This document shows, piece after piece, positions 5,356-24,000 of a stretch of 24,000 nucleotides of DNA. Below the pieces are notes generated by a model that saw only the letters and a list, made by a program, of their open reading frames with translations, was not told where the DNA came from and did no database searches. The DNA is from Terriglobia bacterium (lineage in GTDB: Bacteria; Acidobacteriota; Terriglobia; Terriglobales; Acidobacteriaceae). Each line of letters starts with the position of its first letter. Positions within the stretch are counted from its first letter, which is position 1. The position numbers were made by a program, and so were the translations under genes. The stretch spans positions 65,181-89,180 of the forward strand of contig JAVUPY010000094.1 of NCBI GenBank assembly GCA_032252755.1, written 5' to 3'.

Positions 5356-6144
5356 CTACTCCCGCCTTTTTCCACCCACGATCTGCAGTCCCGCGCGATG
5401 CTTCTTTGCCTCGCGCTCCTGCCTCGCCTTCTCTCTGTCGGAAACATCTGGCAGCGTCTCCGCGCCTTTCTTGTACAGCCCTTCCTTGCGAATGTACTCG
5501 GCGACGGCATCTCCAACCATCGACTCCAGTTTCTTTCCCGATTCCGCCGCCGCGCGAATCTTCGTCGCGGAAACCGGCTCGCTTACATCGTCCAACAGAT
5601 GGATCGTCGTTTCCGGCAGCACCATCGATCCATGAGCGTTCGCCGAACGAAATATTCTCGTGACCTCATCCCGCGGACGCATCGAGTCCGGCAGCGCCTT
5701 CGCAACATCCGCCAGCGAATACCCAGGGCGGCTCGCCACGATGAACTCGCATTCGTGTAGCAACTCTACCGGGCTACGCCACTTGGCAATGTCGAGAAAG
5801 GCGTCGATTCCAATCAGGAAAAACAATTGGTCGCTCTTCTTTAGCGTCTGCTTAAATCGCTTCACTGTGTCGATCGAGTAGCTCGCCAGCTTGCCCTCCG
5901 CCTGGATGACCTCGGGCGCCTCCAGCAGCGACGGGATAAATCTCTTCTCTCCCGCTACCGCCAGCGCAATCATCGCCAGTCGGTGATAGTAGGGCGTGAC
6001 CGCCGTCTTGGCCTTGAGCGGCTGAATATCGGCAGGCACGAAATAAATCTTGCCGAGCTTGAATCGCTCGGCAGCCGCGCGCGCCACCGCAAGATGTCCA
6101 CGATGAATCGGGTCGAAGGTGCCGCCAAATAAAGCCAGGTTCAT
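5356..6144 (-). CDS. nadD: nicotinate-nucleotide adenylyltransferase NadD with ~55-aa charged C-terminal extension
   Basis: N-terminus [14 protein letters not shown] (the HxGH nucleotidyltransferase motif). SATKIR near the end of the core. Lies in the conserved obg-nadD-rsfS neighbourhood. Confidence 0.9.
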
Positions 6145-6193
6145 TCAGTTCTCAATCCCGGTTCTCAGTTTGCTCTACATCGAAGTGCGAGGT

Positions 6194-7480
<1,287 letters not shown>

Positions 7481-7514
7481 CTAAGAAGCCTCAGTCTTTC
7501 GACTGTCTGCAAAG

Positions 7515-7540
7515 CAAAAGGCCCCGCTCGCCACGAGGCC
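7515..7540 (-). terminator. possible weak intrinsic terminator/attenuator after rpmA
   Basis: Minus strand reads GGCCUCG-UGG-CGAG(bulge)GGCC followed by UUUUGCUUUG. The stem is imperfect. Confidence 0.3.
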
Positions 7541-13894: not shown

Positions 13895-14302
13895 ATGCCG
13901 CAGCGATGCGAAGACGCTTTTAGCAGTATCGAGGGTGCGCAGGAGTTTCTTGCACTGTTAGCGGAAGCAATTGCAGAAACCAGGCGCGATGTCGATGCGG
14001 ACATTCAGGATCATGGAACCAACGGTTCAAGAAGAATCGATGTCCTGAAGATCGCTTCGTATGACCTGGAAGCTTTGGAACATCATATCTACCGCAGTAA
14101 GAGGCTCTTGAATGACCTCCGTATGGTCCGACGATTGCTCATGCAGGAACGGGGAGTCGCCGGTACTGAACTGCCTGACCCACCAGCCCCGATTCCGCTG
14201 GTTCGTATGGAACTGCCCATTCCACGGCCGCACGTGTTGGAGAAACGCCGAGCCCGACCGAGCGTGGGCGGACGAGAAAAGTCAGTTGCAGTTGCCAGTT
14301 AA
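13895..14302 (+). CDS. hypothetical helical protein (135 aa)
   Basis: ATG preceded by GGAGGA 7 nt upstream. The N-terminal half is predicted helical and the C-terminus is Pro/Arg-rich. No family recognised. Confidence 0.5.
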   Translation: MPQRCEDAFSSIEGAQEFLALLAEAIAETRRDVDADIQDHGTNGSRRIDVLKIASYDLEALEHHIYRSKRLLNDLRMVRRLLMQERGVAGTELPDPPAPIPLVRMELPIPRPHVLEKRRARPSVGGREKSVAVAS

Positions 14303-15075
14303 GTGTTTTGCTGAGCTTTGGCGAGACGATCGCCTATCACCCCATATACGGACGCGTTGAACGCAAGACCGATATGTGTACCGGGGACCTCGACATCGAT
14401 CTTGGGATCGCCGGTCACACAGCACTTCCAGTCCACCACCCCGTCATCCCGCGTATAGATCGCTGTCTGGCGCACCGACTTTGACAGGCGCGTGCGCAGT
14501 GAGCACACGAAATCGCACGTACACCTTGACGTGTAGCAGTCGGGAAGAACCGCCGTTCCATACTCTTCCAGGATTTGGCTCCGCACAAATCCGGCAGCGC
14601 GCAGGATCGAATGGTGGGCGACAGTGCCCCTGAAAGGAGAGGCAATGGTTGTCACAGAAGCTATGTCGCGGGGCCGTTGGCGAGCGACCGAACGCGCCAT
14701 GATGCCTCCCAGGCTGTGCCCCACAAGGTGAACCTTGCCGTGGGTTTCCTTCAAAGCCTTGTCGATCGTTGCCCACAGCTTGTACTTGATCAACAGGTTG
14801 GGGCACTCGGCATTCAGCCCGATCCCCGATAGATAGGACCTGTAACCAATGCGTGTGAGCCAGCCGTTCAGGTGCTGGAGGTATTCGTCAGTTCCCAAAA
14901 ACCCTGGTATGACGACGACCCCCGAGCCGTCACCCCGTGGAACTCCAAACCCGTAATAGGTCGGGGAGGCATGGAGCAGAAGGAGTTCAGCTCCAAAAAA
15001 AGCTTCTTTCCAGATGGAAATATTCGCAGGACCCGACTCCCGGATACTGACAGTCTGCGTTCGACTATGGGCCAT
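14299..15075 (-). CDS. alpha/beta-fold hydrolase (lipase/esterase-like), paralogue 1
   Basis: Nucleophile elbow GHSLGG, oxyanion-type VVVIPGFLG, candidate Asp in YTRDDGVVDW and His in PGTHIGLAFN. About 45-50% identical by eye to the 16797-17579 product. Confidence 0.85.
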   Translation of the reverse strand: MAHSRTQTVSIRESGPANISIWKEAFFGAELLLLHASPTYYGFGVPRGDGSGVVVIPGFLGTDEYLQHLNGWLTRIGYRSYLSGIGLNAECPNLLIKYKLWATIDKALKETHGKVHLVGHSLGGIMARSVARQRPRDIASVTTIASPFRGTVAHHSILRAAGFVRSQILEEYGTAVLPDCYTSRCTCDFVCSLRTRLSKSVRQTAIYTRDDGVVDWKCCVTGDPKIDVEVPGTHIGLAFNASVYGVIGDRLAKAQQNT

Positions 15076-15174
15076 AGATTATTGGCTACCAACTAGCTGT
15101 TGGATGAGATAACCCCTATTCCAGTTGTCGCAAAGTGTTGGAATGCTGCCATAGCGGCTCCTGTTTCCGCAACC

Positions 15175-15206
15175 AAGAAAAATGCCGCGGACTTAACATC
15201 CGCGGC
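15175..15206 (-). terminator. Rho-independent terminator after the phasin-like gene
   Basis: Minus strand reads GCCGCGGA-UGUUAAG-UCCGCGGC followed by AUUUUUCUU. It starts 28 nt after the stop codon. Confidence 0.65.
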
Positions 15207-15233
15207 GGGGTCATGATTGTCTGGGCGCCATCA

Positions 15234-16154
15234 TCAGGCGGTCGCGGCCATTGACCTTGCTCGGCGTGGTTTTCGCCGGCCCACCTTCGCGCGATGAACT
15301 TCGACGACCTTCCCTCGGGGTTGCTTTGCTTTCATCATCGAATCGATAAGTGCCTTCTCGGCGTCGACGAAGCTCTTTACGCCTTCGCCTGTAAGCTTTG
15401 CGATCGGCAGGCGCATCGGTATAGCAACCTCAGTCGCATTCTTTGCTACTTTGAGGTTCGTCTTCATCTGCTGCGCGGCAACGTCGAGCAGCTTCTTTTG
15501 CGCCTCAACCAGCGTGTTTACAGATTCGCGTGCCAAGGTGCTGATTTCTGTCCTGGCAGCCGGTTTCATCGTGCGCTCACCCTTGCTTGATGCCTTCGTG
15601 GTTTCTTCTGAGATGACGTCGAGCAGCTTCTTCTGTGTGCGGACAAAGTTCTCCATGCCTTCGCGAGCCAACTCAATCAAACGACCACCGTCGTAACGTT
15701 TTCCGTTCTTGGCATCATTCAGGAATCCCTGCGTCTGCTTGCTGGCGATCGTAAGGAACTCCTGCTGCATGGTCACGAAGTTTTCGGTGCTGCGACGGAC
15801 CACGTCCACCATGGCAACGGCCGCGCGTGAATTATGGACCCGCTCCCTGACGCCGTTCATGAACAGTTCGTTCTCTTTATCGGCGAGGTCGAGCAGGACT
15901 CTCTGCGCCTCGACGAAGTTTGCCGTCCCTTCCACTGCAAGCTCATTCAATATTGCGTTCGGCGAGTGCTCCGGATGAGATATGCTCTCGCGCATTGCCT
16001 TCATCGTGCTGGCGTTCTGCCGCATTGCTACATCGATCAGGATCCGCTGGGTTGCGAAGAAACTCTCCATCGCCTGCTGTACCCAGCCCGATAACAGAGA
16101 TACAAAAGACGAGGGTCGCGGCTCCACCCCTTCCCGTTTCACTTCCGCTTTCAT
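15234..16154 (-). CDS. phasin-like granule/lipid-body structural protein made of six ~45-aa amphipathic repeats, with basic C-terminal tail
   Basis: Strong RBS GAGGAGG 5 nt before the ATG. The six repeats have cores ESFFATQRILIDVA, ANFVEAQRVLLDLA, ENFVTMQQEFLTIA, ENFVRTQKKLLDVI, NTLVEAQKKLLDVA and KSFVDAEKALIDSM. Each resembles the phasin motif A-x-EG-x-E-x-hh-E-x-x-x-x-hh. The gene is divergent from phaR. Confidence 0.7.
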   Translation of the reverse strand: MKAEVKREGVEPRPSSFVSLLSGWVQQAMESFFATQRILIDVAMRQNASTMKAMRESISHPEHSPNAILNELAVEGTANFVEAQRVLLDLADKENELFMNGVRERVHNSRAAVAMVDVVRRSTENFVTMQQEFLTIASKQTQGFLNDAKNGKRYDGGRLIELAREGMENFVRTQKKLLDVISEETTKASSKGERTMKPAARTEISTLARESVNTLVEAQKKLLDVAAQQMKTNLKVAKNATEVAIPMRLPIAKLTGEGVKSFVDAEKALIDSMMKAKQPRGKVVEVHRAKVGRRKPRRARSMAATA

Positions 16155-16172
16155 AAAAGCCTCCTCACTCTA

Positions 16173-16187
16173 TGCTGCACCGCAGCA
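16173..16187. promoter_or_regulatory. candidate PhaR operator: perfect palindrome TGCTGC-acc-GCAGCA
   Basis: 15-bp perfect inverted repeat containing CTGC-N3-GCAG. It lies between the predicted -10 and the RBS of the phasin-like gene. Confidence 0.6.
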
Positions 16188-16196
16188 ATCAAGAAA

Positions 16197-16226
16197 AGCA
16201 TAGGCTTGATCAGAGTGATATGTCAA
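16197..16226 (-). promoter_or_regulatory. sigma70-type promoter of the phasin-like gene (TTGACA-N18-TATGCT)
   Basis: On the minus strand, TTGACA is at 16226-16221 and TATGCT at 16202-16197, with an 18-nt spacer. Confidence 0.5.
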
Positions 16227-16236
16227 CATAGGTAAG

Positions 16237-16253
16237 CGCAATATTGCGTCGCA
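16237..16253. promoter_or_regulatory. second candidate PhaR site in front of phaR: CGCAAT/ATTGCG palindrome overlapping TGC-gtc-GCA
   Basis: The 12-bp perfect palindrome CGCAATATTGCG (16237-16248) overlaps TGCgtcGCA (16245-16253). It sits just downstream of a weak TTGATC-N17-TAGGTA promoter candidate (16206-16234) and 20 nt before the phaR ATG. Confidence 0.4.
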
Positions 16254-16273
16254 GCATCCGGGGAGAATCGGGA

Positions 16274-16807
16274 ATGTCAGCTCCACATATCATCAAGAAA
16301 TACGAAAACCGCCGGCTTTATGACACGTCGCGAAGTCGCTACGTGAACTTGGAGGAAATCGCCACCCTCATTCGCAAGGGCTACGAGGTCCGTGTGGTGG
16401 ACGCAAAAACCGGGGAAGACCTGACCCGTCCTACCCTGATGCAGATCATTGTCGAGGACAACAAAGAGGGATCGGCCGGACTCCCACTGGAACTGATGCG
16501 CCAGCTGATCGTCGCATCCGATCAGGTTGGACGGGATTTCCTGTCGTGGTATCTCAAGTCGGCCTTTGACGCCTACGGAAAAGTACAGCAGTCGTTCCGT
16601 AGCGGCCTCTCTGATCTGCAGGCGGCGGCGACATCCCCTATCGACTCCATCCGCCAGTTGCTCCGTATGCCGCAGGACGCAAAAGACGACAAAGGTGAAG
16701 TTTCTGAACTGAAGAAGAGGCTGGAGGAATTAGAGGCCCGCCTCCAAAAGCGAGCGCGACCTCGGTCAACCGGCGAGCGCACGAAGAAACGTAAAGCTAA
16801 GCGATAG
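16274..16807 (+). CDS. phaR: PhaR-family repressor (polyhydroxyalkanoate synthesis regulator type)
   Basis: IIKKYENRRLYDTSRSRYVNLEEIATLIRKGYEVRVVDAKTGEDLTRPTLMQIIVE closely matches the hallmark PhaR N-domain (IKKYPNRRLYDT..S.Y.TL.D...L......F.V.DAK.G.DLTR..LLQII.E). ATG at 16274 with GGGGAG upstream. Confidence 0.9.
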   Translation: MSAPHIIKKYENRRLYDTSRSRYVNLEEIATLIRKGYEVRVVDAKTGEDLTRPTLMQIIVEDNKEGSAGLPLELMRQLIVASDQVGRDFLSWYLKSAFDAYGKVQQSFRSGLSDLQAAATSPIDSIRQLLRMPQDAKDDKGEVSELKKRLEELEARLQKRARPRSTGERTKKRKAKR

Positions 16808-17579
16808 CGCTCCTTTCGCGTCGTCCAGTAGAAGCGCTGGCGAGTCGTTCTGCGATAACACGGTAAACCGCCGGGTTGAACGCCAAGCCGCTGTGGGTTC
16901 CGGAAACCTCGACATCCACGCTTGGGTCTCCGGTTCTGCAACTCGTCCATTCCACCAGGCCGTCATCTCGAGTGTAGACAGCAGTCAGCGGTAGTTTCGA
17001 TGGAAATGGCTGACGCAATGACTTCATGAATGCGCAGGGGCATTCCGCGGTGAGGCATTGTGGCCTCACACGCTCGGCCCGGTTGGCAATCAGGTACTTC
17101 CGGACAACTTCCGCGCTCTGAAAAATCCTTTTGCGAACGACTGTTTGCCGGACGGGAGATCCCAGCGTGATAACCGAAGCTATATCGTTTCGCTGCGTTG
17201 CGATCGAACGCGCGATCGCCCCGCCAAGACTGTGCCCGATCAGGTGGACTTTTCGCCCAGTCACTCTGGCAGCATCGGTAATGACCGGTTCCACGATCTC
17301 TGAAATCAGGAGATTGGGGCAGCTCGCATTGAAGCCGATTCCGGAATACGTCGGAGAATATCCCAACCGCTTCAGCCATGCATACATCACGATCAGGTAC
17401 GTATCGCCGTGTAGAAATCCGGGTATCAGGACAACTGCCGATCCGTCTCCTGGCGGCACCCCTGCTCCGTAATACACGGGTGAACCCAGCAACAGCACCA
17501 GTTCTACCGCATACAGCGATTCATGCCACTCCGGGTTGAGGGCTTCGCCGCGGTAACTATTCTCCTTCTTTTGCGACAT
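16797..17579 (-). CDS. alpha/beta-fold hydrolase (lipase/esterase-like), paralogue 2, last gene of the HMGR-WS/DGAT operon
   Basis: GHSLGG, VVLIPGFLHG, YTRDDGLVEW and SGTHSGLAFN. It starts 9 nt after the WS/DGAT stop. Its 3' end overlaps the phaR 3' end by 11 nt. Confidence 0.85.
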   Translation of the reverse strand: MSQKKENSYRGEALNPEWHESLYAVELVLLLGSPVYYGAGVPPGDGSAVVLIPGFLHGDTYLIVMYAWLKRLGYSPTYSGIGFNASCPNLLISEIVEPVITDAARVTGRKVHLIGHSLGGAIARSIATQRNDIASVITLGSPVRQTVVRKRIFQSAEVVRKYLIANRAERVRPQCLTAECPCAFMKSLRQPFPSKLPLTAVYTRDDGLVEWTSCRTGDPSVDVEVSGTHSGLAFNPAVYRVIAERLASASTGRRERSAIA

Positions 17580-17588
17580 AGTAATCTC

Positions 17589-19166
17589 TTATGCCGCTGT
17601 TGACGTCACTCCCGCGGCTGCAGCTCTTGCCATCGGCTTTGGCTTCGAGCCAATCCGATCGGTCTGCGCTTCGAGCGGAGTGGCCGCGACACGCCGAGAC
17701 TTTGTGTTGCGTGAGCGCTGCCTGCGGACTCCTGCTGCGCGGAGCAACTCCGCGACGCTCTCATCAACGAACTTCGGCAGCTTTTCCAGGTCCGGTGCGG
17801 CCTTTGCATCCCCGGTAAATCCGAAGTACACCATTCCGTTATACGAAAGCACTGCGCAGTTGATGCCCATCTCCCCGCCGATGGGAACATAGGGATAAGC
17901 CTTGAGCATTTCATGTCCGAGCAGATAAAGCGGCTGTCTCGGTCCGGGCACATTGGTACAAATCGTATTGCAGACACTGATGGGTAGCTCACTGATGATG
18001 GGCGCGAGCATAGCCTGCAGGACGGTCGGAATCGTACCGAGGAGCGTACCGGCAAACGACACGAACTCAGCTATGCGCGCTGTCTTTACGAATTCCATCC
18101 GCTGATGAATGGCGCTGAGCAGTTTCTTGGGAGTACGAATTCCCAGTGGAGCGGAAAATGGCGCGAATGTAATGTGATTTCCTAATCCGTCCGACTGATG
18201 TCTGCGCGTGCTCATCGGCACGACGATACGAATAGAGCGGCCGCGTGGATTCACCCCATGCAATTCGCTGTAACGCCGGAATGCCGCGGTGAGGACAGTG
18301 AGGATGGCATCGTTGACCGAGGCGCCGCACTTGCTGCGCAAAGCCTTTAAATATTCCAAACGAGTCTCGGTCCATTCGAAGCGCTGGGGCCCACGGCAGA
18401 GTACGTTGAAGGGCAACCGCTGAGGCACTTCCGCCAATTCGGCCGCAACGCGCACGATCTGGTCTTGCCCGGGCTTGCGTAAGTTGTTCGCAGCCTCAGC
18501 TTCGGCGGCGCCATTCTCTGAGATCCCCATGGCGCGCTGGAACATCGTGAGTACTCCGCTCCCGGCCTGCAGCAACCGCTCCAACGTCGAGAACCAGGAC
18601 TGGATTGCGGAATTGACCGTATCCGTCCCATTGCCGTTAACGGCAGGGCGGGGCACACGAACTTTAGGGCGCGTAAAAACCGGTGCCGTTGGAGATGTAT
18701 CCATCAAAACGTTGATCAGTCCCATGCCTGAAATGCCATCAGCCAGGCAGTGGTGTACACGTGCGATCATTGCCGTGCGGTTACCCTTAAGGCCGCGGAT
18801 CAGGGTCAGGTCCCATAACGGATGCTTTCGGTCCATATTGGGGCTGAGCACATTCGCCGTAACGTCTTTGAGTTCCGCAACCGTCCCACGCCTCAGCCGA
18901 ATCTCGTGGATGTGCCGCTCCAACCGGAAGTCAGTCGCAAACTCCCAATATGGCATGCCTACGTTCAGCGGCGGGACAACCACTCGTTGCATGTAGCGAG
19001 GGATCTGGCTGAGCTTCGAGGCGACCAGGTTGCGAAGATACGCGGCGGAGATTTCGCCGTCGAAAACTGCCAGCGAGGCAATATTAAGGGGAGCACCGTT
19101 GCGTTCGAGATAAAGAAACAGCGAGTCGCCAAACGATAAATATTCGCACTCGTGAGTCATGGGCAT
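17589..19166 (-). CDS. wax ester synthase / acyl-CoA:diacylglycerol acyltransferase (WS/DGAT family)
   Basis: Catalytic HHxxxDG motif present as ARVHHCLADGISG. The ~520-aa length and the N-terminal PLNIASLAVFDG plus C-terminal NxxxTNVPGP (ICTNVPGPRQPLYL) are typical of the family. The start may be 19166 or 19160. Confidence 0.9.
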   Translation of the reverse strand: MPMTHECEYLSFGDSLFLYLERNGAPLNIASLAVFDGEISAAYLRNLVASKLSQIPRYMQRVVVPPLNVGMPYWEFATDFRLERHIHEIRLRRGTVAELKDVTANVLSPNMDRKHPLWDLTLIRGLKGNRTAMIARVHHCLADGISGMGLINVLMDTSPTAPVFTRPKVRVPRPAVNGNGTDTVNSAIQSWFSTLERLLQAGSGVLTMFQRAMGISENGAAEAEAANNLRKPGQDQIVRVAAELAEVPQRLPFNVLCRGPQRFEWTETRLEYLKALRSKCGASVNDAILTVLTAAFRRYSELHGVNPRGRSIRIVVPMSTRRHQSDGLGNHITFAPFSAPLGIRTPKKLLSAIHQRMEFVKTARIAEFVSFAGTLLGTIPTVLQAMLAPIISELPISVCNTICTNVPGPRQPLYLLGHEMLKAYPYVPIGGEMGINCAVLSYNGMVYFGFTGDAKAAPDLEKLPKFVDESVAELLRAAGVRRQRSRNTKSRRVAATPLEAQTDRIGSKPKPMARAAAAGVTSTAA

Positions 19167-19174
19167 GTACCCTC

Positions 19175-20368
19175 TTACCTTCGGTTGCGCCCGAGTCGTT
19201 CGTGGGAGGAAACCCAGTCACCGTGAAGGATGGCAGCGACCAGCGAAATCTCGCCGGCGAGCACGACCGCGGCACAGATTTCCGCAAATTTGTTTACCTT
19301 GCCGTCACCGTAGCAACCCATCATCTCCAAACACTGTCTCTGGGTCGCCAATCCCGTGCCGCCGCCGAATGTGCCGACGATCAGCGAGGGAAGCGTAATA
19401 GACCAGTAAAAATCACCGTTTTCGAGAGCCTGCGTATACGTGAGCGATGAGTGTGATTCCGCTATGTTGGCGACGTCCTGGCCGGTCGCAATGAAAAGCG
19501 CAGCCAGTCCGTTTGCGGCGTGCGCACCAGTGCTGGATGATCCGGCTAAAAAAGCGCCCGAGATCTGAACCTCGCGAATCTTGCAGATCTCTTCGGTCTC
19601 GATGTGGAGGTACCGCCTGAGCAACTGTCCAGGAATAACGGCTTCCGCTACCACTCGTTTGCCACGCGTAAGCAGCATATTCAAATGCGAGTGCTTTTTG
19701 TCGGTGTCTATGTTTCCGCTGAGATAGTAAGAGGTGCGGAATGGACAGTTATCGCGAATCCATTCACAGGCCGCCTGCGTCGCCTTGCCTGTCATATTCT
19801 GACCAGCCGCATCTCCAGTCGTGTAATTGAAGCGCAGGTAGCGTACAGGCCCAACCGCGAACTGCTCGATCCTGATCAGTTTCCCGACTCGAGTCGTCGC
19901 TTCTGCCTCACGCTTGATATGCTCATAGTGCTCTTCGACCCATCGCCCGAAAGATCTTGCCAGGCGCGCGTTTCCAAGCAGGAAGGCGGGCGCGCGCTGC
20001 ATCGCATCATCCACTACAGTCGTTCGGACACCCCCGGACTCGCTGAGCACCCGCATGCCGCGGTTGTAGCTTGAGACCACCGTGCCCTCGGTGGTCGCCA
20101 GGGGGATGAAGAACTCGCCTTCGGCATACTCACCGTGAATTTGAAGTGGCCCGGCTACTCCTATCGGCACTTGTGCTACACCAATGAAGTTTTCGATATT
20201 TCCAGGGAGAATTGCGGGATCGAAAGAGTAGTGCGCGAGGTGAGTGAGATCGACGCCAGTGCTTTCCAGGATGAATCCACGTCGCATCGCGGCCATTTCA
20301 TGTGTGTAATCGTTGACCCGGGAGCGCGGAATAGTGATCCTCGGTTCGTCTTGGAGATCGGTGGCCAT
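19175..20368 (-). CDS. HMG-CoA reductase homologue (class I-type catalytic domain, soluble, ~397 aa)
   Basis: NIENFIGVAQVPIGVAGPL, PLATTEGTVVSS, TGDAAGQNM (cf. DAMGxNM), GTFGGGT (cf. GTVGGGT), and a C-terminal SSHE catalytic-His region. I chose the ATG at 20368 (MATDLQ), which has GGAGGG 9 nt upstream. The stop lies 8 nt before the WS/DGAT start. Confidence 0.85.
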   Translation of the reverse strand: MATDLQDEPRITIPRSRVNDYTHEMAAMRRGFILESTGVDLTHLAHYSFDPAILPGNIENFIGVAQVPIGVAGPLQIHGEYAEGEFFIPLATTEGTVVSSYNRGMRVLSESGGVRTTVVDDAMQRAPAFLLGNARLARSFGRWVEEHYEHIKREAEATTRVGKLIRIEQFAVGPVRYLRFNYTTGDAAGQNMTGKATQAACEWIRDNCPFRTSYYLSGNIDTDKKHSHLNMLLTRGKRVVAEAVIPGQLLRRYLHIETEEICKIREVQISGAFLAGSSSTGAHAANGLAALFIATGQDVANIAESHSSLTYTQALENGDFYWSITLPSLIVGTFGGGTGLATQRQCLEMMGCYGDGKVNKFAEICAAVVLAGEISLVAAILHGDWVSSHERLGRNRR

Positions 20369-20513
20369 TGGGGAACCCTCCGAAGATGTGGTTCGCAACA
20401 AATCCATCGGCCCAGAGCAGCCTGTGGAGTCGCATGCGGGCACACAAGCTCCAAGAGCAGGGCCTGCCGAGAACAGAAGACAATCCGGTAAAAGCGTAGT
20501 ACGTTTCACACGA

Positions 20514-20523
20514 TGCGAAGCAG
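20514..20523. promoter_or_regulatory. TGC-gaa-GCAG box (PhaR half-consensus) in the divergent region between the HMGR operon and the 138-aa gene
   Basis: aTGCgaaGCAGat. It is nested in local inverted repeats GCAGAT-N11-ATCTGC and CGTGA-N6-TCACG (minus-strand reading). Confidence 0.25.
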
Positions 20524-20570
20524 ATTTATTTGCGTGATCTGCGTCACGTTTCGCATTTTGGCGCGAGGCC

Positions 20571-20987
20571 ATGATGAAAAAACTTACACAGGTCGAACAG
20601 GCGCGTGCACTGATGGCCGAAGCTCTTGACTGGTCCGTCATGAGGTGGTTGAGCGAGAAGAAGCGAGTCCGGAAAGCCGCCGACCAAGCAAATGACTTGT
20701 TGAATGATGCCGAAGCGGAGATTCGCAAAAAGTGGAGTCCGGAATTCAGATCCATCTACGAAGAATCAGGATTCGCGTCTCCCGAAATGAAGCGCCTCGC
20801 CAGCAGAATTCGGCGCGAGCATGATGCCGCAACCCGGTTCAGAGTCGAGGCCGAAAAAACCTTCGATGCGGCAGAGAAGAGACTGAGCACGGCCATGGCC
20901 CGCGAAGGATGCCGGCAAGCCATCGAAGGGTGGGACCATCACCTCGAAGCCATTCGTCTGGCGGAAACCGCACTTGAAGCTGACTAG
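20571..20987 (+). CDS. hypothetical all-helical protein (138 aa)
   Basis: ATGATG start with GAGG just upstream. Charged, helix-prone sequence. Divergent from the HMGR operon. No family recognised. Confidence 0.5.
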   Translation: MMKKLTQVEQARALMAEALDWSVMRWLSEKKRVRKAADQANDLLNDAEAEIRKKWSPEFRSIYEESGFASPEMKRLASRIRREHDAATRFRVEAEKTFDAAEKRLSTAMAREGCRQAIEGWDHHLEAIRLAETALEAD

Positions 20988-20994
20988 CAGTTGA

Positions 20995-21711
20995 TCACGC
21001 TTGCGCAGGGTTGCGACTTGCGAGCAGTGTTTCTACTCTTTCCCACTGCTCCGTCGTATCCAGATCGCAGGATTCGTCTTGCGGAGATACGATTCCGGCC
21101 ATCTTCTCCCCATACAACGAATTCGTCGTAAGCAATACCTGCGTGCTTACGACAAACACATTGCCATCGCGATGGAACGCTGTTGGAAGAAGTTGACGAG
21201 AGGTGATCGGCTCTCTTTCTCCGGTACTGATCTTCAGGAAATTCTGTTCATTCGGGAAATAGACCCAGTGCGGGTTGAACTCTGTGGGTACCGGGCGCAC
21301 GGAGACGACACTGTCCGCGCCGGAGTCCCAGAGGGCCGCGACGCAACGACGAATTGTTTCCGCACTCCTCAGTGGGCTGGTCGGCTGCAGCAGGCATATG
21401 GCTTCGAACTCACGCCGCTCAGCTGCGAGCGTAATAACCGCATGCCGAACGACGTCGAGCATCGGCGTTTCGTCGCGAGCGAGTTCAACGGGGCGCATGA
21501 AGGGGACTTCCAGGCCGCACTTTCCGCCAATTTCAGCAATCTCCGAATCATCGGTACTGAGCACGAGACTCGTGAGGCACCCAGCCTCGCGAGCCGCTCT
21601 GGCGGTGTACTCGAGCAAGTACAGGGAACCGAGTTTGCGAGCATTCTTCCGCGGAATTCCCTTGGAACCACCGCGTGCGGGGACCAGCCCCAGTACTCGT
21701 CTGGATACCAT
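20995..21711 (-). CDS. neuA: acylneuraminate cytidylyltransferase (CMP-sialic/nonulosonic acid synthetase)
   Basis: N-terminal LVPARGGSKGIPRKN motif, then LLQPTSPLR. Length ~238 aa. Adjacent to neuB and neuC. Confidence 0.85.
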   Translation of the reverse strand: MVSRRVLGLVPARGGSKGIPRKNARKLGSLYLLEYTARAAREAGCLTSLVLSTDDSEIAEIGGKCGLEVPFMRPVELARDETPMLDVVRHAVITLAAERREFEAICLLQPTSPLRSAETIRRCVAALWDSGADSVVSVRPVPTEFNPHWVYFPNEQNFLKISTGEREPITSRQLLPTAFHRDGNVFVVSTQVLLTTNSLYGEKMAGIVSPQDESCDLDTTEQWERVETLLASRNPAQA

Positions 21712-21803
21712 TCAGGGAGAAGCTAACATATTCCCTATCCCTTGCAACAGATTCGCCGAAGTTCTGTGGTATACAAAGCGTGGGAAGTTACTCAAGACAC
21801 ACC

Positions 21804-22856
21804 ATGATCAGCATACTTGGGCGAAAAATTGGGCCTACAGAACGCCCCTTTGTCATCGCGGAAATCGGTATCAATCACGAAGGCAGCGTCACAAAGGCCG
21901 AACAGACGGTTGACGCTGCTGCGCGGGCCGGATGCGAGTGTGTGAAGTTCCAGGCGCACGTGATCGAAGACGAAATGATCCCGAACGAAGTGATTCCGGG
22001 CAATGCAAAGGAGAGCATTTGGGAGATCATGAGGCGTTGCGCCCTCACGGAAGACGAGGACGCGAGATTGAAGAAGCGCGCCGAAGATGCGGGCATGATC
22101 TACCTCTCAACCCCGTTCTCCCGGGCCGCCGCCGACAGGCTGGAAAGATTGGGAGTCGCGGCTTACAAGATCGGCTCTGGCGAATGCAACAATTATCCCT
22201 TGATTAAGCACATCGCCGCGTTTGGGAAGCCGGTCATCCTCAGTACGGGCATGAATGACCTTGGCTCAATTGACCCGGCGGTGGCGCTCCTCCGGCAATA
22301 CTCCATACCGTTTGCGCTCTTGCACTGTACCTCGATGTATCCGACGCCTTATAAGAAGATGCGGCTGGGAGCTTTGCACGATCTGAAGGAGAGATTTCCG
22401 GACGCGGTGCTGGGACTAAGCGATCACTCATTAGGTAATTACACTTGCTACGCAGCGGTTGCACTAGGGGCTTCCATCGTTGAGAAACATTTCACTGCCG
22501 ACAAGAAGTGGCCTGGGCCCGACGTGCCGATTTCGATCGACGAAGAAGAACTTCGAGAATTAGTAGAAGGAACGGCGGCAGTTCATGCTGCACTCGGTGG
22601 CAAGAAGACGATCCTGCCAGAAGAGCAGCCGACCATCGATTTCGCCTATGCATGCGTTGTCACTCTAAGGGATATTGCTGCAGGAGAGGTCCTCTCGCCG
22701 GACAACATCTGGGTGAAGCGTCCCGGAACCGGGGAGATCAAGGCGAGAGACTATCAGTCGTTACTGGGAGTGCGAGTGAAGTCTTCGGTAAAAAAGAACA
22801 GCCAATTAAAGTGGAGCGATCTGGAATGCGGAGCTTCGGCAAAAGCCGAAAGATAA
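21804..22856 (+). CDS. neuB: N-acetylneuraminate (nonulosonate) synthase with C-terminal SAF domain
   Basis: PFVIAEIGINHEGS, VKFQ, YKIGSGECNNYPLI, LLHCTSMYPTP and LSDHSLG. ATG at 21804 (MISILGRKIG). The upstream part of the tracked ORF is rejected. Confidence 0.9.
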   Translation: MISILGRKIGPTERPFVIAEIGINHEGSVTKAEQTVDAAARAGCECVKFQAHVIEDEMIPNEVIPGNAKESIWEIMRRCALTEDEDARLKKRAEDAGMIYLSTPFSRAAADRLERLGVAAYKIGSGECNNYPLIKHIAAFGKPVILSTGMNDLGSIDPAVALLRQYSIPFALLHCTSMYPTPYKKMRLGALHDLKERFPDAVLGLSDHSLGNYTCYAAVALGASIVEKHFTADKKWPGPDVPISIDEEELRELVEGTAAVHAALGGKKTILPEEQPTIDFAYACVVTLRDIAAGEVLSPDNIWVKRPGTGEIKARDYQSLLGVRVKSSVKKNSQLKWSDLECGASAKAER

Positions 22857-24000
22857 CTTTCCTCACGGCGACCCGCGCCGATTTCGGCAAGCTAAAACCG
22901 CTGATTGCGAAGGTGGCCGGCACTTCTCGCTACGATTACGATATCTTCGCCACCGGCATGCACATGTTGTCGCGGTACGGATCTACTCTGGGGGAGATAT
23001 ATAAGAGCGGTTTTAAGAACGTTTACCCCTACACGAACCAGGATGGCTCGGTAACCTCGCAGATGGACCTTGTGTTAGCCAATACAGTTCACGGACTAGG
23101 GCTACACATACGGGAGCAGAGACCTGATCTGCTGGTGGTGCATGGTGATCGGGTCGAAGCCCTCGCAGGTGCGATCGTAGGTGTGCTGAACAATATCCAC
23201 GTCGCCCATATAGAAGGTGGCGAACTTTCGGGAACGGTTGATGAGGTGCTCCGGCACGCCGTAACAAAGCTGTCACACGTTCATTTCGTTGCAAATCAAC
23301 AGGCGGCGGCTCGTCTTCAGCAGTTAGGTGAGCGACCCTCCTCGATCTTCGTTATCGGATCGCCGGACATCGACGTAATGTTTTCCGAAAACCTGCCCAA
23401 GCTCGAAGACGTCAAGGAAAGATATGCGATTGGGTTCGACGAGTACGCCATTTTCATTTATCACCCCGTGACAACGGAGCATGACAGCTTACGAACCAAT
23501 ATCCGAGAAACGATTGCAGCGTTGCTCGAGAGCGGAAAGAACTTTGTCGTAATTCAGCCAAACAATGATTACGGGGCTGACATCATCCAGGAAGAGATCT
23601 CACCACTCGCAAGTAATCCGCGGTTCCGGTTGTTGCCATCAATGCGGTTTGAGTACTTTCTGTGCCTCTTGAAGCACTCGCGGTTCATGGCGGGGAATTC
23701 CAGCGCAGGAATAAGGGAAGCACCGGGGTATGGTGTTCCGACATTGAACATCGGCAGCAGGCAGTCGAATCGGTGGCATCATGTTTCCATCGTGAATGTT
23801 CCGGAGAACCGCACCGCCATTCTCGACGGATTGAAGCGGCTTCCCACGAAAGTCTCCCCTGTGGCCCACTTCGGCGACGGACGTTCGGCAGATCGCTTCC
23901 TCGCAATTCTTGACGAGCCATTGATCTGGGAAACTCCCACTCAGAAGTTGTTCCAGGATATGCCCGCTGCGGCGTTCTCCACGTCCGCTGAGAGAGCATA
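22826..24000 (+). CDS. neuC: UDP-N-acetylglucosamine 2-epimerase (hydrolysing), NeuC-type; 3' end runs off the window
   Basis: Hand-translated and absent from the ORF track because no stop is reached. Sequence: MRSFGKSRKITFLTATRADFGKLKPLI..., DLLVVHGDRVEALAGA, VAHIEGGELSGTVDE, GNSSAGIREAPGYGVPTLNIGSRQ. The frame is open for 391 codons to the window edge. It overlaps the neuB 3' end by 31 nt. Confidence 0.85.
   Translation, partial: MRSFGKSRKITFLTATRADFGKLKPLIAKVAGTSRYDYDIFATGMHMLSRYGSTLGEIYKSGFKNVYPYTNQDGSVTSQMDLVLANTVHGLGLHIREQRPDLLVVHGDRVEALAGAIVGVLNNIHVAHIEGGELSGTVDEVLRHAVTKLSHVHFVANQQAAARLQQLGERPSSIFVIGSPDIDVMFSENLPKLEDVKERYAIGFDEYAIFIYHPVTTEHDSLRTNIRETIAALLESGKNFVVIQPNNDYGADIIQEEISPLASNPRFRLLPSMRFEYFLCLLKHSRFMAGNSSAGIREAPGYGVPTLNIGSRQSNRWHHVSIVNVPENRTAILDGLKRLPTKVSPVAHFGDGRSADRFLAILDEPLIWETPTQKLFQDMPAAAFSTSAERA

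What the first reader, a model, noticed from the sequence alone, without database searches (positions are those of the whole stretch)
17589..20368. HMG-CoA reductase homologue translationally linked to WS/DGAT: possible source of the alcohol substrate
The HMGR-like stop codon lies 8 nt before the WS/DGAT start and overlaps its SD region. The hydrolase gene follows 9 nt after the WS/DGAT stop. This makes a tight three-gene operon.

Wax-ester synthesis needs an alcohol, normally supplied by a fatty acyl-CoA reductase (FAR/Acr type), and none is present in the window. HMGR chemistry is precisely a four-electron NAD(P)H reduction of an acyl-CoA thioester to a primary alcohol.

Two hypotheses follow:
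(a) This HMGR paralogue has been recruited as an alcohol-forming acyl-CoA reductase. Some motifs deviate from the consensus (DAAGQNM versus DAMGxNM, GTFGGGT versus GTVGGGT).
(b) It is a genuine HMGR channelling mevalonate-derived isoprenoid alcohols into storage esters.

Either coupling would be new.
Basis: inference. Interest (0 to 1): 0.75.

Follow-up and report, generated by a model that had tools for sequence, protein, structure and literature searches.

The report
HMGR-like fatty acyl-CoA reductase (FcrA) operon

Summary
On the minus strand, a 397-aa class-I HMGR homologue (20368→19175) is followed after 8-14 nt by a WS/DGAT (19166/19160→17589). A lipase-like hydrolase (17579→16797) follows 9 nt later.

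The reductase keeps the HMGR catalytic tetrad. It lacks Lys735, the HMG-carboxylate salt bridge (Val/Gln here). It has Trp in place of Leu862. These are the two published hallmarks of FcrA, the HMGR-derived fatty acyl-CoA reductase (Grossi et al., ISME J 2025, PMC11948995). That enzyme reduces C14+ acyl-CoA to alcohol, does not reduce HMG-CoA, and gives wax esters when co-expressed with a WS/DGAT.

In a neighbour-joining tree the protein falls outside the canonical HMGR group (93/100 bootstraps). It scores below NCBI's HMGR equivalog cut-off. No mevalonate-pathway gene lies near it. The reductase-WS/DGAT pairing recurs in 7 of 7 Terriglobales-type loci.

Hypothesis (a) is therefore supported but not new. 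Hypothesis (b), a genuine HMGR, is not supported.

One side observation is less ordinary. In 9 of 9 Acidobacteriota loci the WS/DGAT is linked to a PhaR regulator, a phasin-like protein with a conserved PhaR operator, and lipase-like hydrolases. No PHA synthase was seen nearby. In two of these loci an AdhE-like reductase occupies the FcrA position.

The parts
19175..20368 (-). fcrA-like gene: class-I HMGR homologue of 397 aa, predicted NADPH-dependent fatty acyl-CoA reductase (alcohol-forming)
   Evidence: Pfam PF00368 scores 417 bits. TIGR00533 scores 357, below its cut-off of 441.8. The residue signature is ERSDKK(V/Q)NDWH against ERSDKKKNDLH in canonical HMGRs. The protein lies outside the canonical clade in 93/100 bootstraps.
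19202..19225 (-). HGDWVSSH: C-terminal helix carrying Trp385 (human Leu862 position) and the catalytic His389 (human His866)
   Evidence: HMMER alignments to 1dq8 and 6hr7. The MAFFT column is W in all 13 Terriglobales-clade sequences and in all 120 closest homologues. Grossi et al. report that a bulky residue at this position is found in all FcrA.
19556..19573 (-). EVQISG: the position of human Lys735 (HMG-carboxylate salt bridge), occupied by Val267 or Gln268 depending on gap placement
   Evidence: Lys is present in all 14 canonical sequences and absent here.
19793..19813 (-). DAAGQNM motif (canonical DAMGMNM)
   Evidence: M655A and M657Q are specificity-determining positions. Canonical sequences are 14/14 Met, while non-canonical sequences are mostly Ala and Gln.
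17589..19166 (-). [quoted passage not shown]
   Evidence: TIGR02946 scores 327.6, above its cut-off of 309.95. Pfam WS_DGAT_cat and WS_DGAT_C both match. HHCLADG lies at 18735-18755.
16797..17579 (-). Hydrolase A: small alpha/beta serine esterase/lipase-like protein of 260 aa, third gene of the operon
   Evidence: GHSLGG is present, and the Ser117/Asp206/His229 triad is invariant in 32 homologues. The AF2 model has pLDDT 85 with a generic esterase/lipase fold; the B. subtilis LipA match has TMt 0.74. Pfam gives a PGAP1-like match.
16244..16807 (+). PhaR-like regulator, convergent with the operon; the likely start is the ATG at 16274
   Evidence: PF07879 PHB_acc_N, E = 9e-29. TIGR01848 scores 105.2, just below its cut-off of 109.45.
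16175..16185 (.). CTGCACCGCAG palindrome, a candidate PhaR operator between the -10 hexamer and the start of the phasin-like gene
   Evidence: It is the only match in 24 kb. The same motif lies upstream of the phasin-like gene in L001, L003, L004, L006 and L016. It matches the R. sphaeroides PhaR site CTGCNNNGCAG (PMC12542648).
16197..16226 (-). Sigma-70-like promoter TTGACA-18-TATGCT upstream of the phasin-like gene
   Evidence: It matches 10 of 12 consensus positions and is the only promoter-like site found in 14000-21200.
15234..16154 (-). Phasin-like protein of 306 aa, six long predicted helices with a repeated F-x-x-x-Q-x-x-L-L-D-type motif
   Evidence: No Pfam family passes threshold. 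26 of 33 homologues give weak Phasin_2 hits, best E = 8e-4. More than 1500 homologues exist, all named hypothetical. The all-helical model has low confidence, pLDDT 52. A terminator-like hairpin at 15206-15184 follows the gene.
14299..15075 (-). Hydrolase B, a paralogue of hydrolase A (50% identity)
   Evidence: It keeps the same GHSLGG/RDDG/GTHxG triad motifs. It is conserved downstream of the phasin-like gene in L004, L006, L016 and L024-L026.
20571..20987 (+). orf138, a conserved divergent small helical protein of unknown function
   Evidence: It is conserved divergently upstream of fcrA in L002, L004 and L006. It has no Pfam or PDB match.

Best explanation
The gene at 20368→19175 encodes an FcrA-type fatty acyl-CoA reductase. 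FcrA is a class-I HMG-CoA-reductase descendant that uses the unchanged HMGR catalytic machinery (Glu/Lys/Asp/His and NADPH). It carries out the four-electron reduction of long-chain acyl-CoA to a fatty alcohol.

The gene appears to be co-transcribed, and probably translationally coupled, with a WS/DGAT. The WS/DGAT would esterify that alcohol with a second acyl-CoA to make wax esters, and may also make triacylglycerol. A small lipase-like serine hydrolase completes the operon, plausibly for mobilising the stored esters.

Shown here: gene anatomy, family membership, residue signature, tree position and conserved synteny. Taken from the literature: the biochemical activity of the family, tested on the Ca. 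Promineifilum breve enzyme. Inferred: that this particular enzyme has that activity and chain-length preference, that the product is a storage wax ester, and the role of the hydrolase.
For: 1. Catalytic residues: E559, K691, D767 and H866 (human numbering) are all conserved.
2. FcrA hallmarks: Lys735 is replaced by Val/Gln and Leu862 by Trp. These are two of the three pocket changes that Grossi et al. give as FcrA hallmarks, and they describe the bulky residue at 862 as present in all FcrA. All 14 canonical HMGRs in the alignment, including human, Arabidopsis, M. thermolithotrophicus 6hr7 and two archaeal genes, have S/K/L. Of the 135 non-canonical sequences, 133 lack Leu at 862 and 132 lack Lys at 735.
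3. Tree position: the canonical sequences form a split excluding the window protein in 93/100 NJ bootstraps. Its nearest 50%-cluster representatives include proteins with the PF25653 N-terminal domain, which I take to be the Lad domain of described FcrAs.
4. The TIGR00533 HMGR equivalog score is 357, below the 441.8 cut-off.
5. The reductase-WS/DGAT adjacency is conserved in 7/7 Terriglobales-type loci.
6. In two other Acidobacteriota loci with the same WS/DGAT-PhaR-phasin-like-hydrolase module (L025, L026), the position upstream of WS/DGAT holds an AdhE-like aldehyde/alcohol dehydrogenase. In L025 a small STAS gene lies between them. That enzyme type performs the same net acyl-CoA-to-alcohol reduction, so this looks like non-homologous replacement.
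7. Published biochemistry: Pb-FcrA reduces C14-C18 acyl-CoA with NADPH, does not reduce HMG-CoA, is insensitive to simvastatin, and yields wax esters in E. coli when co-expressed with a WS/DGAT.
8. All 31 cultured acidobacterial genomes examined encode the MEP pathway (PMC5462960). No mevalonate gene appears in the window or in the related loci.
Against: - Ser684, which is Glu in N. pharaonis FcrA and is listed as a third differing residue, is retained here as Ser (Ser or Thr across the clade). Arg590 is also retained.
- No experimentally characterised FcrA sequence could be placed in my tree. The grouping with the PF25653-bearing proteins has only 61/100 support.
- The protein lacks the Lad or ACP N-terminal domain of the assayed enzymes.
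- The tree is neighbour-joining, not maximum likelihood.
- The genome could not be searched for mevalonate or MEP genes.
- I found no report of wax esters in Acidobacteria.
- fcrA homologues at 58-63% identity (L007-L011) have no WS/DGAT within the fetched flanks, so the family is not exclusively tied to wax esters.
Confidence: 0.8

Rival explanations
1. It is a genuine HMG-CoA reductase. It makes mevalonate, and mevalonate-derived isoprenoid alcohols are esterified by the WS/DGAT.
For: The match to PF00368 is strong, and the protein is 43-46% identical to archaeal HMGRs. The catalytic tetrad, the Ser684/Asp690/Lys692 cis-loop residues and Arg590 are retained. Public annotation calls the family 'hydroxymethylglutaryl-CoA reductase'.
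Against: Lys735 and Leu862 are invariant in all 14 canonical sequences and are replaced here and in all 120 closest homologues. The protein falls outside the canonical clade in 93/100 bootstraps. It scores below the TIGR00533 cut-off. No HMG-CoA synthase, mevalonate kinase or related gene occurs in the window or in the 8 related loci with gene lists. Cultured Acidobacteria use the MEP pathway. The assayed family member does not reduce HMG-CoA.
Confidence: 0.04
2. It is an FcrA-type reductase, but its main role is to supply fatty alcohols for ether lipids rather than for wax esters. Acidobacteria are known from general knowledge to contain alkyl glycerol ether lipids. On this reading the WS/DGAT mainly makes triacylglycerol.
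For: Grossi et al. note that fcrA often occurs without WS/DGAT, and sometimes lies next to PlsC-like or AGPS ether-lipid genes. Homologues at 58-63% identity have no WS/DGAT within the fetched flanks. WS/DGAT enzymes are often bifunctional (general knowledge).
Against: The gene sits 8-14 nt upstream of a WS/DGAT, in the same orientation, in 7/7 close loci. No AGPS or PlsC-like gene is present in the window. An AdhE-like alcohol-forming enzyme takes the position upstream of WS/DGAT in two other lineages, which ties alcohol supply to WS/DGAT specifically.
Confidence: 0.1
3. It reduces some other acyl-CoA, for example a hydroxy-, branched- or medium-chain acyl-CoA, and gives unusual alcohols or diols that WS/DGAT esterifies. 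The retained polar pocket residues (Ser684, Arg590) would reflect a polar substrate.
For: Ser/Thr at 684 is specific to this subclade and a few others, whereas most FcrA-like proteins have Glu, Asp or Arg. Grossi et al. modelled 12 of 59 putative FcrAs with pockets too small for C14. The locus is linked to PhaR and a phasin-like protein, which normally belong to hydroxyacyl-polymer metabolism.
Against: There is no direct evidence. Arg590 is retained in most FcrA-like sequences, 98 of 135, so it does not discriminate. Trp862 and the loss of Lys735 match the long-chain enzymes.
Confidence: 0.06

Closest known systems
FcrA, the HMGR-derived fatty acyl-CoA reductase (Pb-FcrA CUS01882.1 of Ca. Promineifilum breve and N. 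pharaonis FcrA; Grossi et al., ISME J 2025, PMC11948995)
   Same: It has the class-I HMGR core domain and a conserved catalytic Glu/Lys/Asp/His tetrad. Leu862 is replaced by Trp and Lys735 is lost. It falls outside the canonical HMGR clade and is associated with WS/DGAT. The published cases of direct adjacency are two Halovenus genomes and one Holophagaceae bacterium.
   Different: It is core-only, at 397 aa, with no N-terminal Lad (PF25653) or ACP domain. Ser684 is retained instead of Glu. The host lineage is Terriglobales. The gene is the first of a tight operon with WS/DGAT and a lipase-like hydrolase. No enzyme from this subclade has been assayed.
Canonical class-I HMG-CoA reductase (human 1DQ8/1DQ9, M. 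thermolithotrophicus 6HR7, A. thaliana 7ULI)
   Same: Same fold and same catalytic residues. It is 36-46% identical over about 370 residues. The cis-loop residues Ser684, Asp690, Lys691 and Lys692 are retained.
   Different: Lys735 becomes Val/Gln, Leu862 becomes Trp, Met655/Met657 become Ala/Gln, Thr589 becomes Gln and Cys688 becomes Asp. It scores below the TIGR00533 cut-off, and no mevalonate-pathway genes are nearby.
FarA/AcrB-type fatty acyl-CoA reductases (Marinobacter Maqu_2220/Maqu_2507 type, Rossmann-fold FARs)
   Same: Same net reaction, NADPH-dependent reduction of acyl-CoA to a primary alcohol, and the same role as alcohol supplier to WS/DGAT.
   Different: The fold is unrelated. 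Pb-FcrA does not reduce free aldehyde, whereas FarA and AcrB do.
PhaR-PhaP regulator/phasin pair of PHA-accumulating bacteria (R. sphaeroides, S. meliloti, C. necator)
   Same: A divergent regulator and a helical coat-protein gene. A CTGCNNNGCAG operator lies between the promoter and the coat-protein gene. The coat-protein gene has a strong promoter and its own terminator.
   Different: Here the pair is embedded in a WS/DGAT locus, and no PHA synthase was seen within ±10 kb in the loci with Pfam gene lists. The coat protein is 306 aa and only faintly resembles Phasin_2. The PhaR homologue lacks a recognisable PHB_acc domain.

Membership tests
FcrA (HMGR-derived fatty acyl-CoA reductase) | Class-I HMGR core domain with the catalytic Glu559/Lys691/Asp767/His866 conserved | tested here: met
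   PF00368 scores 417 bits. E94, K224, D298 and H389 align to the tetrad.
FcrA (HMGR-derived fatty acyl-CoA reductase) | Leu862 replaced by a bulky residue, reported in all FcrA (Trp528 in N. pharaonis) | tested here: met
   Trp385 occupies this position. It is W in all 120 closest homologues.
FcrA (HMGR-derived fatty acyl-CoA reductase) | The universally conserved HMG-carboxylate Lys735 (printed as 'Lys795' in the paper) replaced by a non-basic, usually small residue | tested here: met
   Val267 or Gln268, depending on gap placement. It is never Lys in the clade.
FcrA (HMGR-derived fatty acyl-CoA reductase) | Ser684 replaced (Glu360 in N. pharaonis) | tested here: not met
   Ser217 is retained, and the Terriglobales clade has Ser or Thr. 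Among 135 non-canonical sequences, 19 have Ser or Thr and 65 have Glu. The feature is therefore not universal in the non-canonical clade.
FcrA (HMGR-derived fatty acyl-CoA reductase) | Membership of the monophyletic FcrA clade, distinct from characterised HMGRs | tested here: inconclusive
   The protein is separated from 14 canonical sequences in 93/100 NJ bootstraps. No sequence of an assayed FcrA was available to include. Grouping with the PF25653-bearing proteins is only 61/100.
FcrA (HMGR-derived fatty acyl-CoA reductase) | The host genome lacks the other mevalonate-pathway enzymes | not testable with these tools
   Only a 30-kb contig is available. No mevalonate genes occur in it or in the related loci. 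The literature reports MEP in all cultured Acidobacteria.
FcrA (HMGR-derived fatty acyl-CoA reductase) | Reduces C14 and longer acyl-CoA to alcohol with NADPH, has no activity on HMG-CoA, and is statin-insensitive | not testable with these tools
   This needs an enzyme assay. It is known only for Pb-FcrA.
Canonical class-I HMG-CoA reductase (mevalonate-forming) | HMG-binding Lys735 and Leu862 conserved, and a score above the TIGR00533 equivalog cut-off | tested here: not met
   The positions hold V/Q and W. The score is 357.1, below 441.8.
[quoted passage not shown] | TIGR02946 above its cut-off, both Pfam domains present, and the HHxxxDG catalytic motif | tested here: met
   The score is 327.6, above 309.95. 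PF03007 and PF06974 both match. HHCLADG lies at residues 138-144.
PhaR (PHA-granule-responsive repressor) | N-terminal PHB_acc_N DNA-binding domain and a CTGCNNNGCAG-type operator at the promoter of a coat-protein gene | tested here: met
   PF07879, E = 9e-29. The operator lies at 16175-16185 and is conserved in 5 other loci.
PhaR (PHA-granule-responsive repressor) | Full-length equivalog score (TIGR01848), the PHB_acc domain, and association with PHA synthesis genes | tested here: not met
   The score is 105.2, below 109.45. There is no PF05233 hit. No phaC was found in the window or within ±10 kb in L016 and L024-L026.

The most novel reading that the evidence does not exclude
In Terriglobales and other Acidobacteriota, a PhaR-type repressor and a divergent 300-aa phasin-like coat protein may have been recruited from PHA-granule biology to neutral-lipid (wax ester / triacylglycerol) bodies. 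Together with WS/DGAT, one or two lipase-like hydrolases and an interchangeable alcohol-forming reductase (FcrA in some lineages, an AdhE-like enzyme in others), they would form a self-contained and self-regulated wax-ester storage island. If so, PhaR would not be a reliable marker of PHA storage in this phylum, and abundant soil Acidobacteria would store carbon as wax esters.
Probability: 0.35. Interest if true: 0.6.

Novelty: new member of a known kind. Interest (0 to 1): 0.3.

Why it matters
This shows a correct first-principles inference from raw sequence: an HMGR paralogue acting as a fatty acyl-CoA reductase. It reproduces a discovery published in 2025, so it is not new.

Three practical points follow:
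- It extends FcrA, as a compact core-only form in a tight operon with WS/DGAT, to Terriglobales. These are among the most abundant soil bacteria, and I found no report of wax-ester storage in them.
- Public annotation still calls these genes 'hydroxymethylglutaryl-CoA reductase'. That would wrongly suggest a mevalonate pathway.
- The conserved link between WS/DGAT and a PhaR/phasin-like pair, without a nearby PHA synthase, is a testable lead. It bears on how bacteria coat and regulate neutral-lipid bodies, and on the use of PhaR as a PHA marker in soil genomics.

Tried and rejected
- Sequences of the assayed FcrAs (Pb-FcrA, Np-FcrA): I looked in the paper's supplement and found none held as text. 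Cluster look-ups of the nearest representatives gave no organism names linking them to those species. The tree therefore lacks a biochemically validated anchor.
- Neighbours of the 58-63% identical homologues (L007-L011): ORFs were extracted but not scanned against Pfam. By eye they showed no lipid genes, and several were spurious high-GC ORFs. I only state that no WS/DGAT lies within the fetched flanks.
- Structure of the phasin-like protein: the model was all-helical but had pLDDT 52, too low for a fold search.
- Fold search of hydrolase A: it returned only generic alpha/beta-hydrolase esterases and lipases, with no specific family.
- PHROGs scan of the phage-like neighbourhood of the Lad-bearing homologue in L023: only one exonuclease hit, so this is inconclusive.
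- PhaR operator motif upstream of fcrA (20369-20570): none found. I do not claim that PhaR regulates the fcrA operon.
- The 526-aa ORF 19175-20755 was rejected as the gene model. The homologues are about 397 aa, and the extension overlaps orf138 on the opposite strand.


Full report
**Anatomy**

On the minus strand the window carries three closely spaced genes.
- The first runs 20368→19175 and encodes 397 aa. It has a GGAGGG Shine-Dalgarno sequence 8 nt upstream and the stop TAA at 19177-19175.
- The second begins at ATG 19166, 8 nt after that stop. It may instead begin at ATG 19160, which the deposited gene call uses and which has better spacing from the GAGGG that follows the stop. It ends at 17589.
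- The third begins at 17579, 9 nt after the second gene's stop, and ends at 16797.

The 526-aa ORF that the ORF lister extends to 20755 is not the gene. The close homologues are almost all about 396-400 aa and align from residue 1. The extension also overlaps a conserved divergent gene, orf138.

**Family assignments**

- Gene 1 matches Pfam HMG-CoA_red end to end at 417 bits. It scores 357 against NCBI's HMGR equivalog TIGR00533, below the 441.8 cut-off. Its best solved relative is the archaeal class-I HMGR 6HR7 (E = 1e-91, about 43% identity). Human and plant HMGRs are about 36% identical.
- Gene 2 is a WS/DGAT. TIGR02946 is above its cut-off, both Pfam domains match, and the HHCLADG motif is present.
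- Gene 3 is a small alpha/beta serine hydrolase. Its GHSLGG/Asp/His triad is invariant across 32 homologues. The confident AF2 model (pLDDT 85) resembles small esterases and lipases in general, without a specific match.
- No FAR/Acr-type reductase is present in the window.

**Is gene 1 an HMG-CoA reductase?**

I aligned 149 near-full-length class-I HMGR domains. They comprised the window protein, its close homologues, 150 representatives from an exhaustive HMMER search (those nearly full-length), genes from related loci, and three crystallised HMGRs. I read off the residues by human numbering.

The catalytic tetrad Glu559/Lys691/Asp767/His866 is conserved. So are Arg590, Ser684, Asp690, Lys692 and Asn755. 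Two HMG-pocket residues differ. Lys735, the salt bridge to the HMG carboxylate, is Val267 or Gln268 depending on gap placement. Leu862, on the C-terminal lid helix, is Trp385.

All 14 sequences with the S684/K735/L862 combination are canonical. They include human, Arabidopsis, M. thermolithotrophicus and two archaeal genes. All 120 closest homologues of the window protein have Trp at 862 and no Lys at 735.

It further recovered T589Q and C688D.

In a neighbour-joining tree the 14 canonical sequences form a split that excludes the window protein in 93/100 bootstraps. The Terriglobales-type clade has 100/100 support. A larger clade that also contains proteins with an N-terminal PF25653 domain has 61/100 support.

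**What is already known**

A full-text search found Grossi et al., ISME J 2025 (PMC11948995). They describe FcrA, a monophyletic offshoot of class-I HMGR.
- FcrA reduces C14-C18 acyl-CoA to the fatty alcohol with NADPH.
- It does not reduce HMG-CoA or a free aldehyde.
- It is not inhibited by simvastatin.
- It gives wax esters in E. coli when co-expressed with the A. baylyi WS/DGAT.

They list the hallmarks as a conserved catalytic tetrad, a bulky residue in place of Leu862 in all FcrA, replacement of the universally conserved Lys (printed 'Lys795', evidently Lys735) by small residues, and Glu in place of Ser684 in N. pharaonis.

They report FcrA in 26% of WS/DGAT-positive bacteria. They also report that bacteria with only the HMGR-like homologue lack the mevalonate pathway. 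They found fcrA next to WS/DGAT in two Halovenus genomes and in one Holophagaceae (Acidobacteriota) contig.

The window protein meets the tetrad, Leu862 and Lys735 criteria. It does not meet the Ser684 criterion, but 19 of 135 non-canonical sequences also keep Ser or Thr there. It is a core-only form without the Lad or ACP extension.

**Context**

A genome scan and contig look-ups recovered 7 loci with 68-74% identical reductases (L001-L006, L016). They are mostly Acidobacteriota/Terriglobales MAGs, and two are binned elsewhere. In all 7 a WS/DGAT follows immediately. Homologues at 58-63% identity (Arenicella, Acidimicrobiales, Solirubrobacterales) have no WS/DGAT within the fetched flanks. 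This fits the published statement that fcrA also serves other pathways.

No mevalonate-pathway gene occurs in the window or in any locus with a gene list. A survey of 31 cultured acidobacterial genomes found the MEP pathway in all of them (PMC5462960).

The window matches an ENA metagenome contig of 30 kb, over a stretch that includes the finding. The genome itself could therefore not be checked.

**A supporting observation from synteny**

Downstream of the operon lie four further elements:
- a PhaR-like regulator (16244/16274-16807, + strand);
- a 306-aa helical protein (16154→15234), with a strong sigma-70-like promoter and its own terminator-like hairpin;
- a second hydrolase paralogue (15075→14299);
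- a CTGCACCGCAG palindrome at 16175-16185, between the -10 hexamer and the start codon of the 306-aa gene.

The palindrome is the only match in the window. It fits the experimentally defined PhaR site of R. sphaeroides (PMC12542648). The same motif sits upstream of the orthologous gene in 5 other loci.

The 306-aa protein has no Pfam family. However, 26 of 33 homologues give weak Phasin_2 hits, and its model is six long helices at low confidence.

Look-ups starting from distant homologues of this protein found the same module, WS/DGAT-PhaR-phasin-like-hydrolase, in three more Acidobacteriota genomes (L024-L026). No PHA synthase lies within ±10 kb of it. In L026 an AdhE-like aldehyde/alcohol dehydrogenase fusion sits directly upstream of the WS/DGAT, where fcrA sits in the window. 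In L025 the same kind of gene sits there with a small STAS gene between it and the WS/DGAT.

An enzyme of unrelated fold that performs the same net reduction of an acyl-CoA to an alcohol thus occupies the same position. This supports the view that gene 1 supplies the alcohol substrate of WS/DGAT.

**Verdict**

Hypothesis (a) is very probably right (confidence about 0.8), but it is a new member of a family published in 2025 and not a new coupling. Hypothesis (b) is not supported.

Three things remain unshown:
- the activity and chain-length preference of this core-only, Ser684-retaining subclade;
- whether these bacteria actually accumulate wax esters;
- what the hydrolases do.

The association of WS/DGAT with a PhaR/phasin-like pair, and the FcrA/AdhE-like exchange, are the parts I could not find described. 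They are recorded as side leads.

Noticed in passing
window 14299-17579; also L001, L003, L004, L006, L016, L024, L025, L026: WS/DGAT is linked to a PhaR-like regulator, a 306-aa phasin-like protein and one or two lipase-like hydrolases in all 9 Acidobacteriota loci examined. No PHA synthase lies within ±10 kb in the loci that have Pfam gene lists. This suggests that PhaR and the phasin-like protein serve neutral-lipid bodies here, and that PhaR may be a poor marker of PHA storage in this phylum.
   Followed up: partly
window 16175-16185 (operator), 16197-16226 (promoter), 15184-15206 (terminator): The palindrome CTGCACCGCAG matches the R. sphaeroides PhaR site CTGCNNNGCAG. It lies between a TTGACA-18-TATGCT promoter and the start of the phasin-like gene. 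It is the only match in the window, and the motif is conserved at the same place in 5 other loci. No such site lies upstream of fcrA.
   Followed up: yes
L025 4770-7427 and L026 5060-7720: In two other Acidobacteriota lineages, an AdhE-like Aldedh+Fe-ADH fusion of about 885 aa lies upstream of WS/DGAT, where fcrA lies in the window. It is directly adjacent in L026 and separated by a small STAS gene in L025. This is an apparent non-homologous replacement of the alcohol-forming reductase. If the enzyme is short-chain-specific, it could instead imply fatty-acid ethyl esters.
   Followed up: partly
L016 5047-9204; L024 2387-6757; L025 2798-4627 and 12061-13740; L026 3125-4918 and 11871-13625: A GMC-family oxidoreductase and an ABC1/UbiB-type kinase recur next to the WS/DGAT module. 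The oxidoreductase might be a fatty-alcohol oxidase or dehydrogenase. The kinase belongs to a family associated with plastoglobule lipid bodies in plants. Both ideas come from general knowledge and were not tested. Neither gene is present in this window.
   Followed up: no
L023 1-13539 (gene at 6001-7539): A 512-aa FcrA-like protein with the PF25653 N-terminal domain (P0124, 50% identical to the window protein) sits in a run of more than 25 same-strand, mostly small ORFs with no Pfam hits. This looks like a phage or mobile element. PHROGs matched only a DNA-polymerase-exonuclease-like gene.
   Followed up: partly
L014 1859-4000; L015 7989-10340: Pseudobdellovibrionaceae MAGs encode an HMGR-like domain with Phe at position 862 and Arg at position 735. 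It is fused to a C-terminal extension of about 390 aa in L015; in L014 the ORF runs to the contig end. This domain architecture is not among those mentioned in the parts of the FcrA paper that I read.
   Followed up: no
window 20571-20987 (+): orf138 is a small helical protein without a family assignment. It is conserved divergently upstream of fcrA in L002, L004 and L006. Unannotated ORFs of similar size (144 aa) occupy the same position in L016 and L024, but their homology was not tested.
   Followed up: partly
window 16797-17579 and 14299-15075: The two hydrolase paralogues (50% identical) share five invariant cysteines (C87, C175, C180, C182, C214 in hydrolase A) in addition to the Ser/Asp/His triad. 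These may form a metal site or disulfides. Their role is unknown.
   Followed up: no
L027 8004-9170 (Alteromonas macleodii plasmid pBGP9, NZ_OX359244.1): A 59%-identical homologue on a marine Alteromonas plasmid is still annotated 'hydroxymethylglutaryl-CoA reductase' in RefSeq. It lies downstream of an AMP-binding protein, an SDR and a 'thermostable hemolysin' gene, and no WS/DGAT is nearby. This is likely another FcrA-type gene carrying a misleading name.
   Followed up: partly
window 20995-24000: Upstream of the lipid locus lies a nonulosonic (sialic-like) acid biosynthesis set: a CMP-sugar cytidylyltransferase (PseF/NeuA-like), a NeuB-type synthase and a UDP-GlcNAc 2-epimerase. It appears unrelated to the finding.
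   Followed up: no
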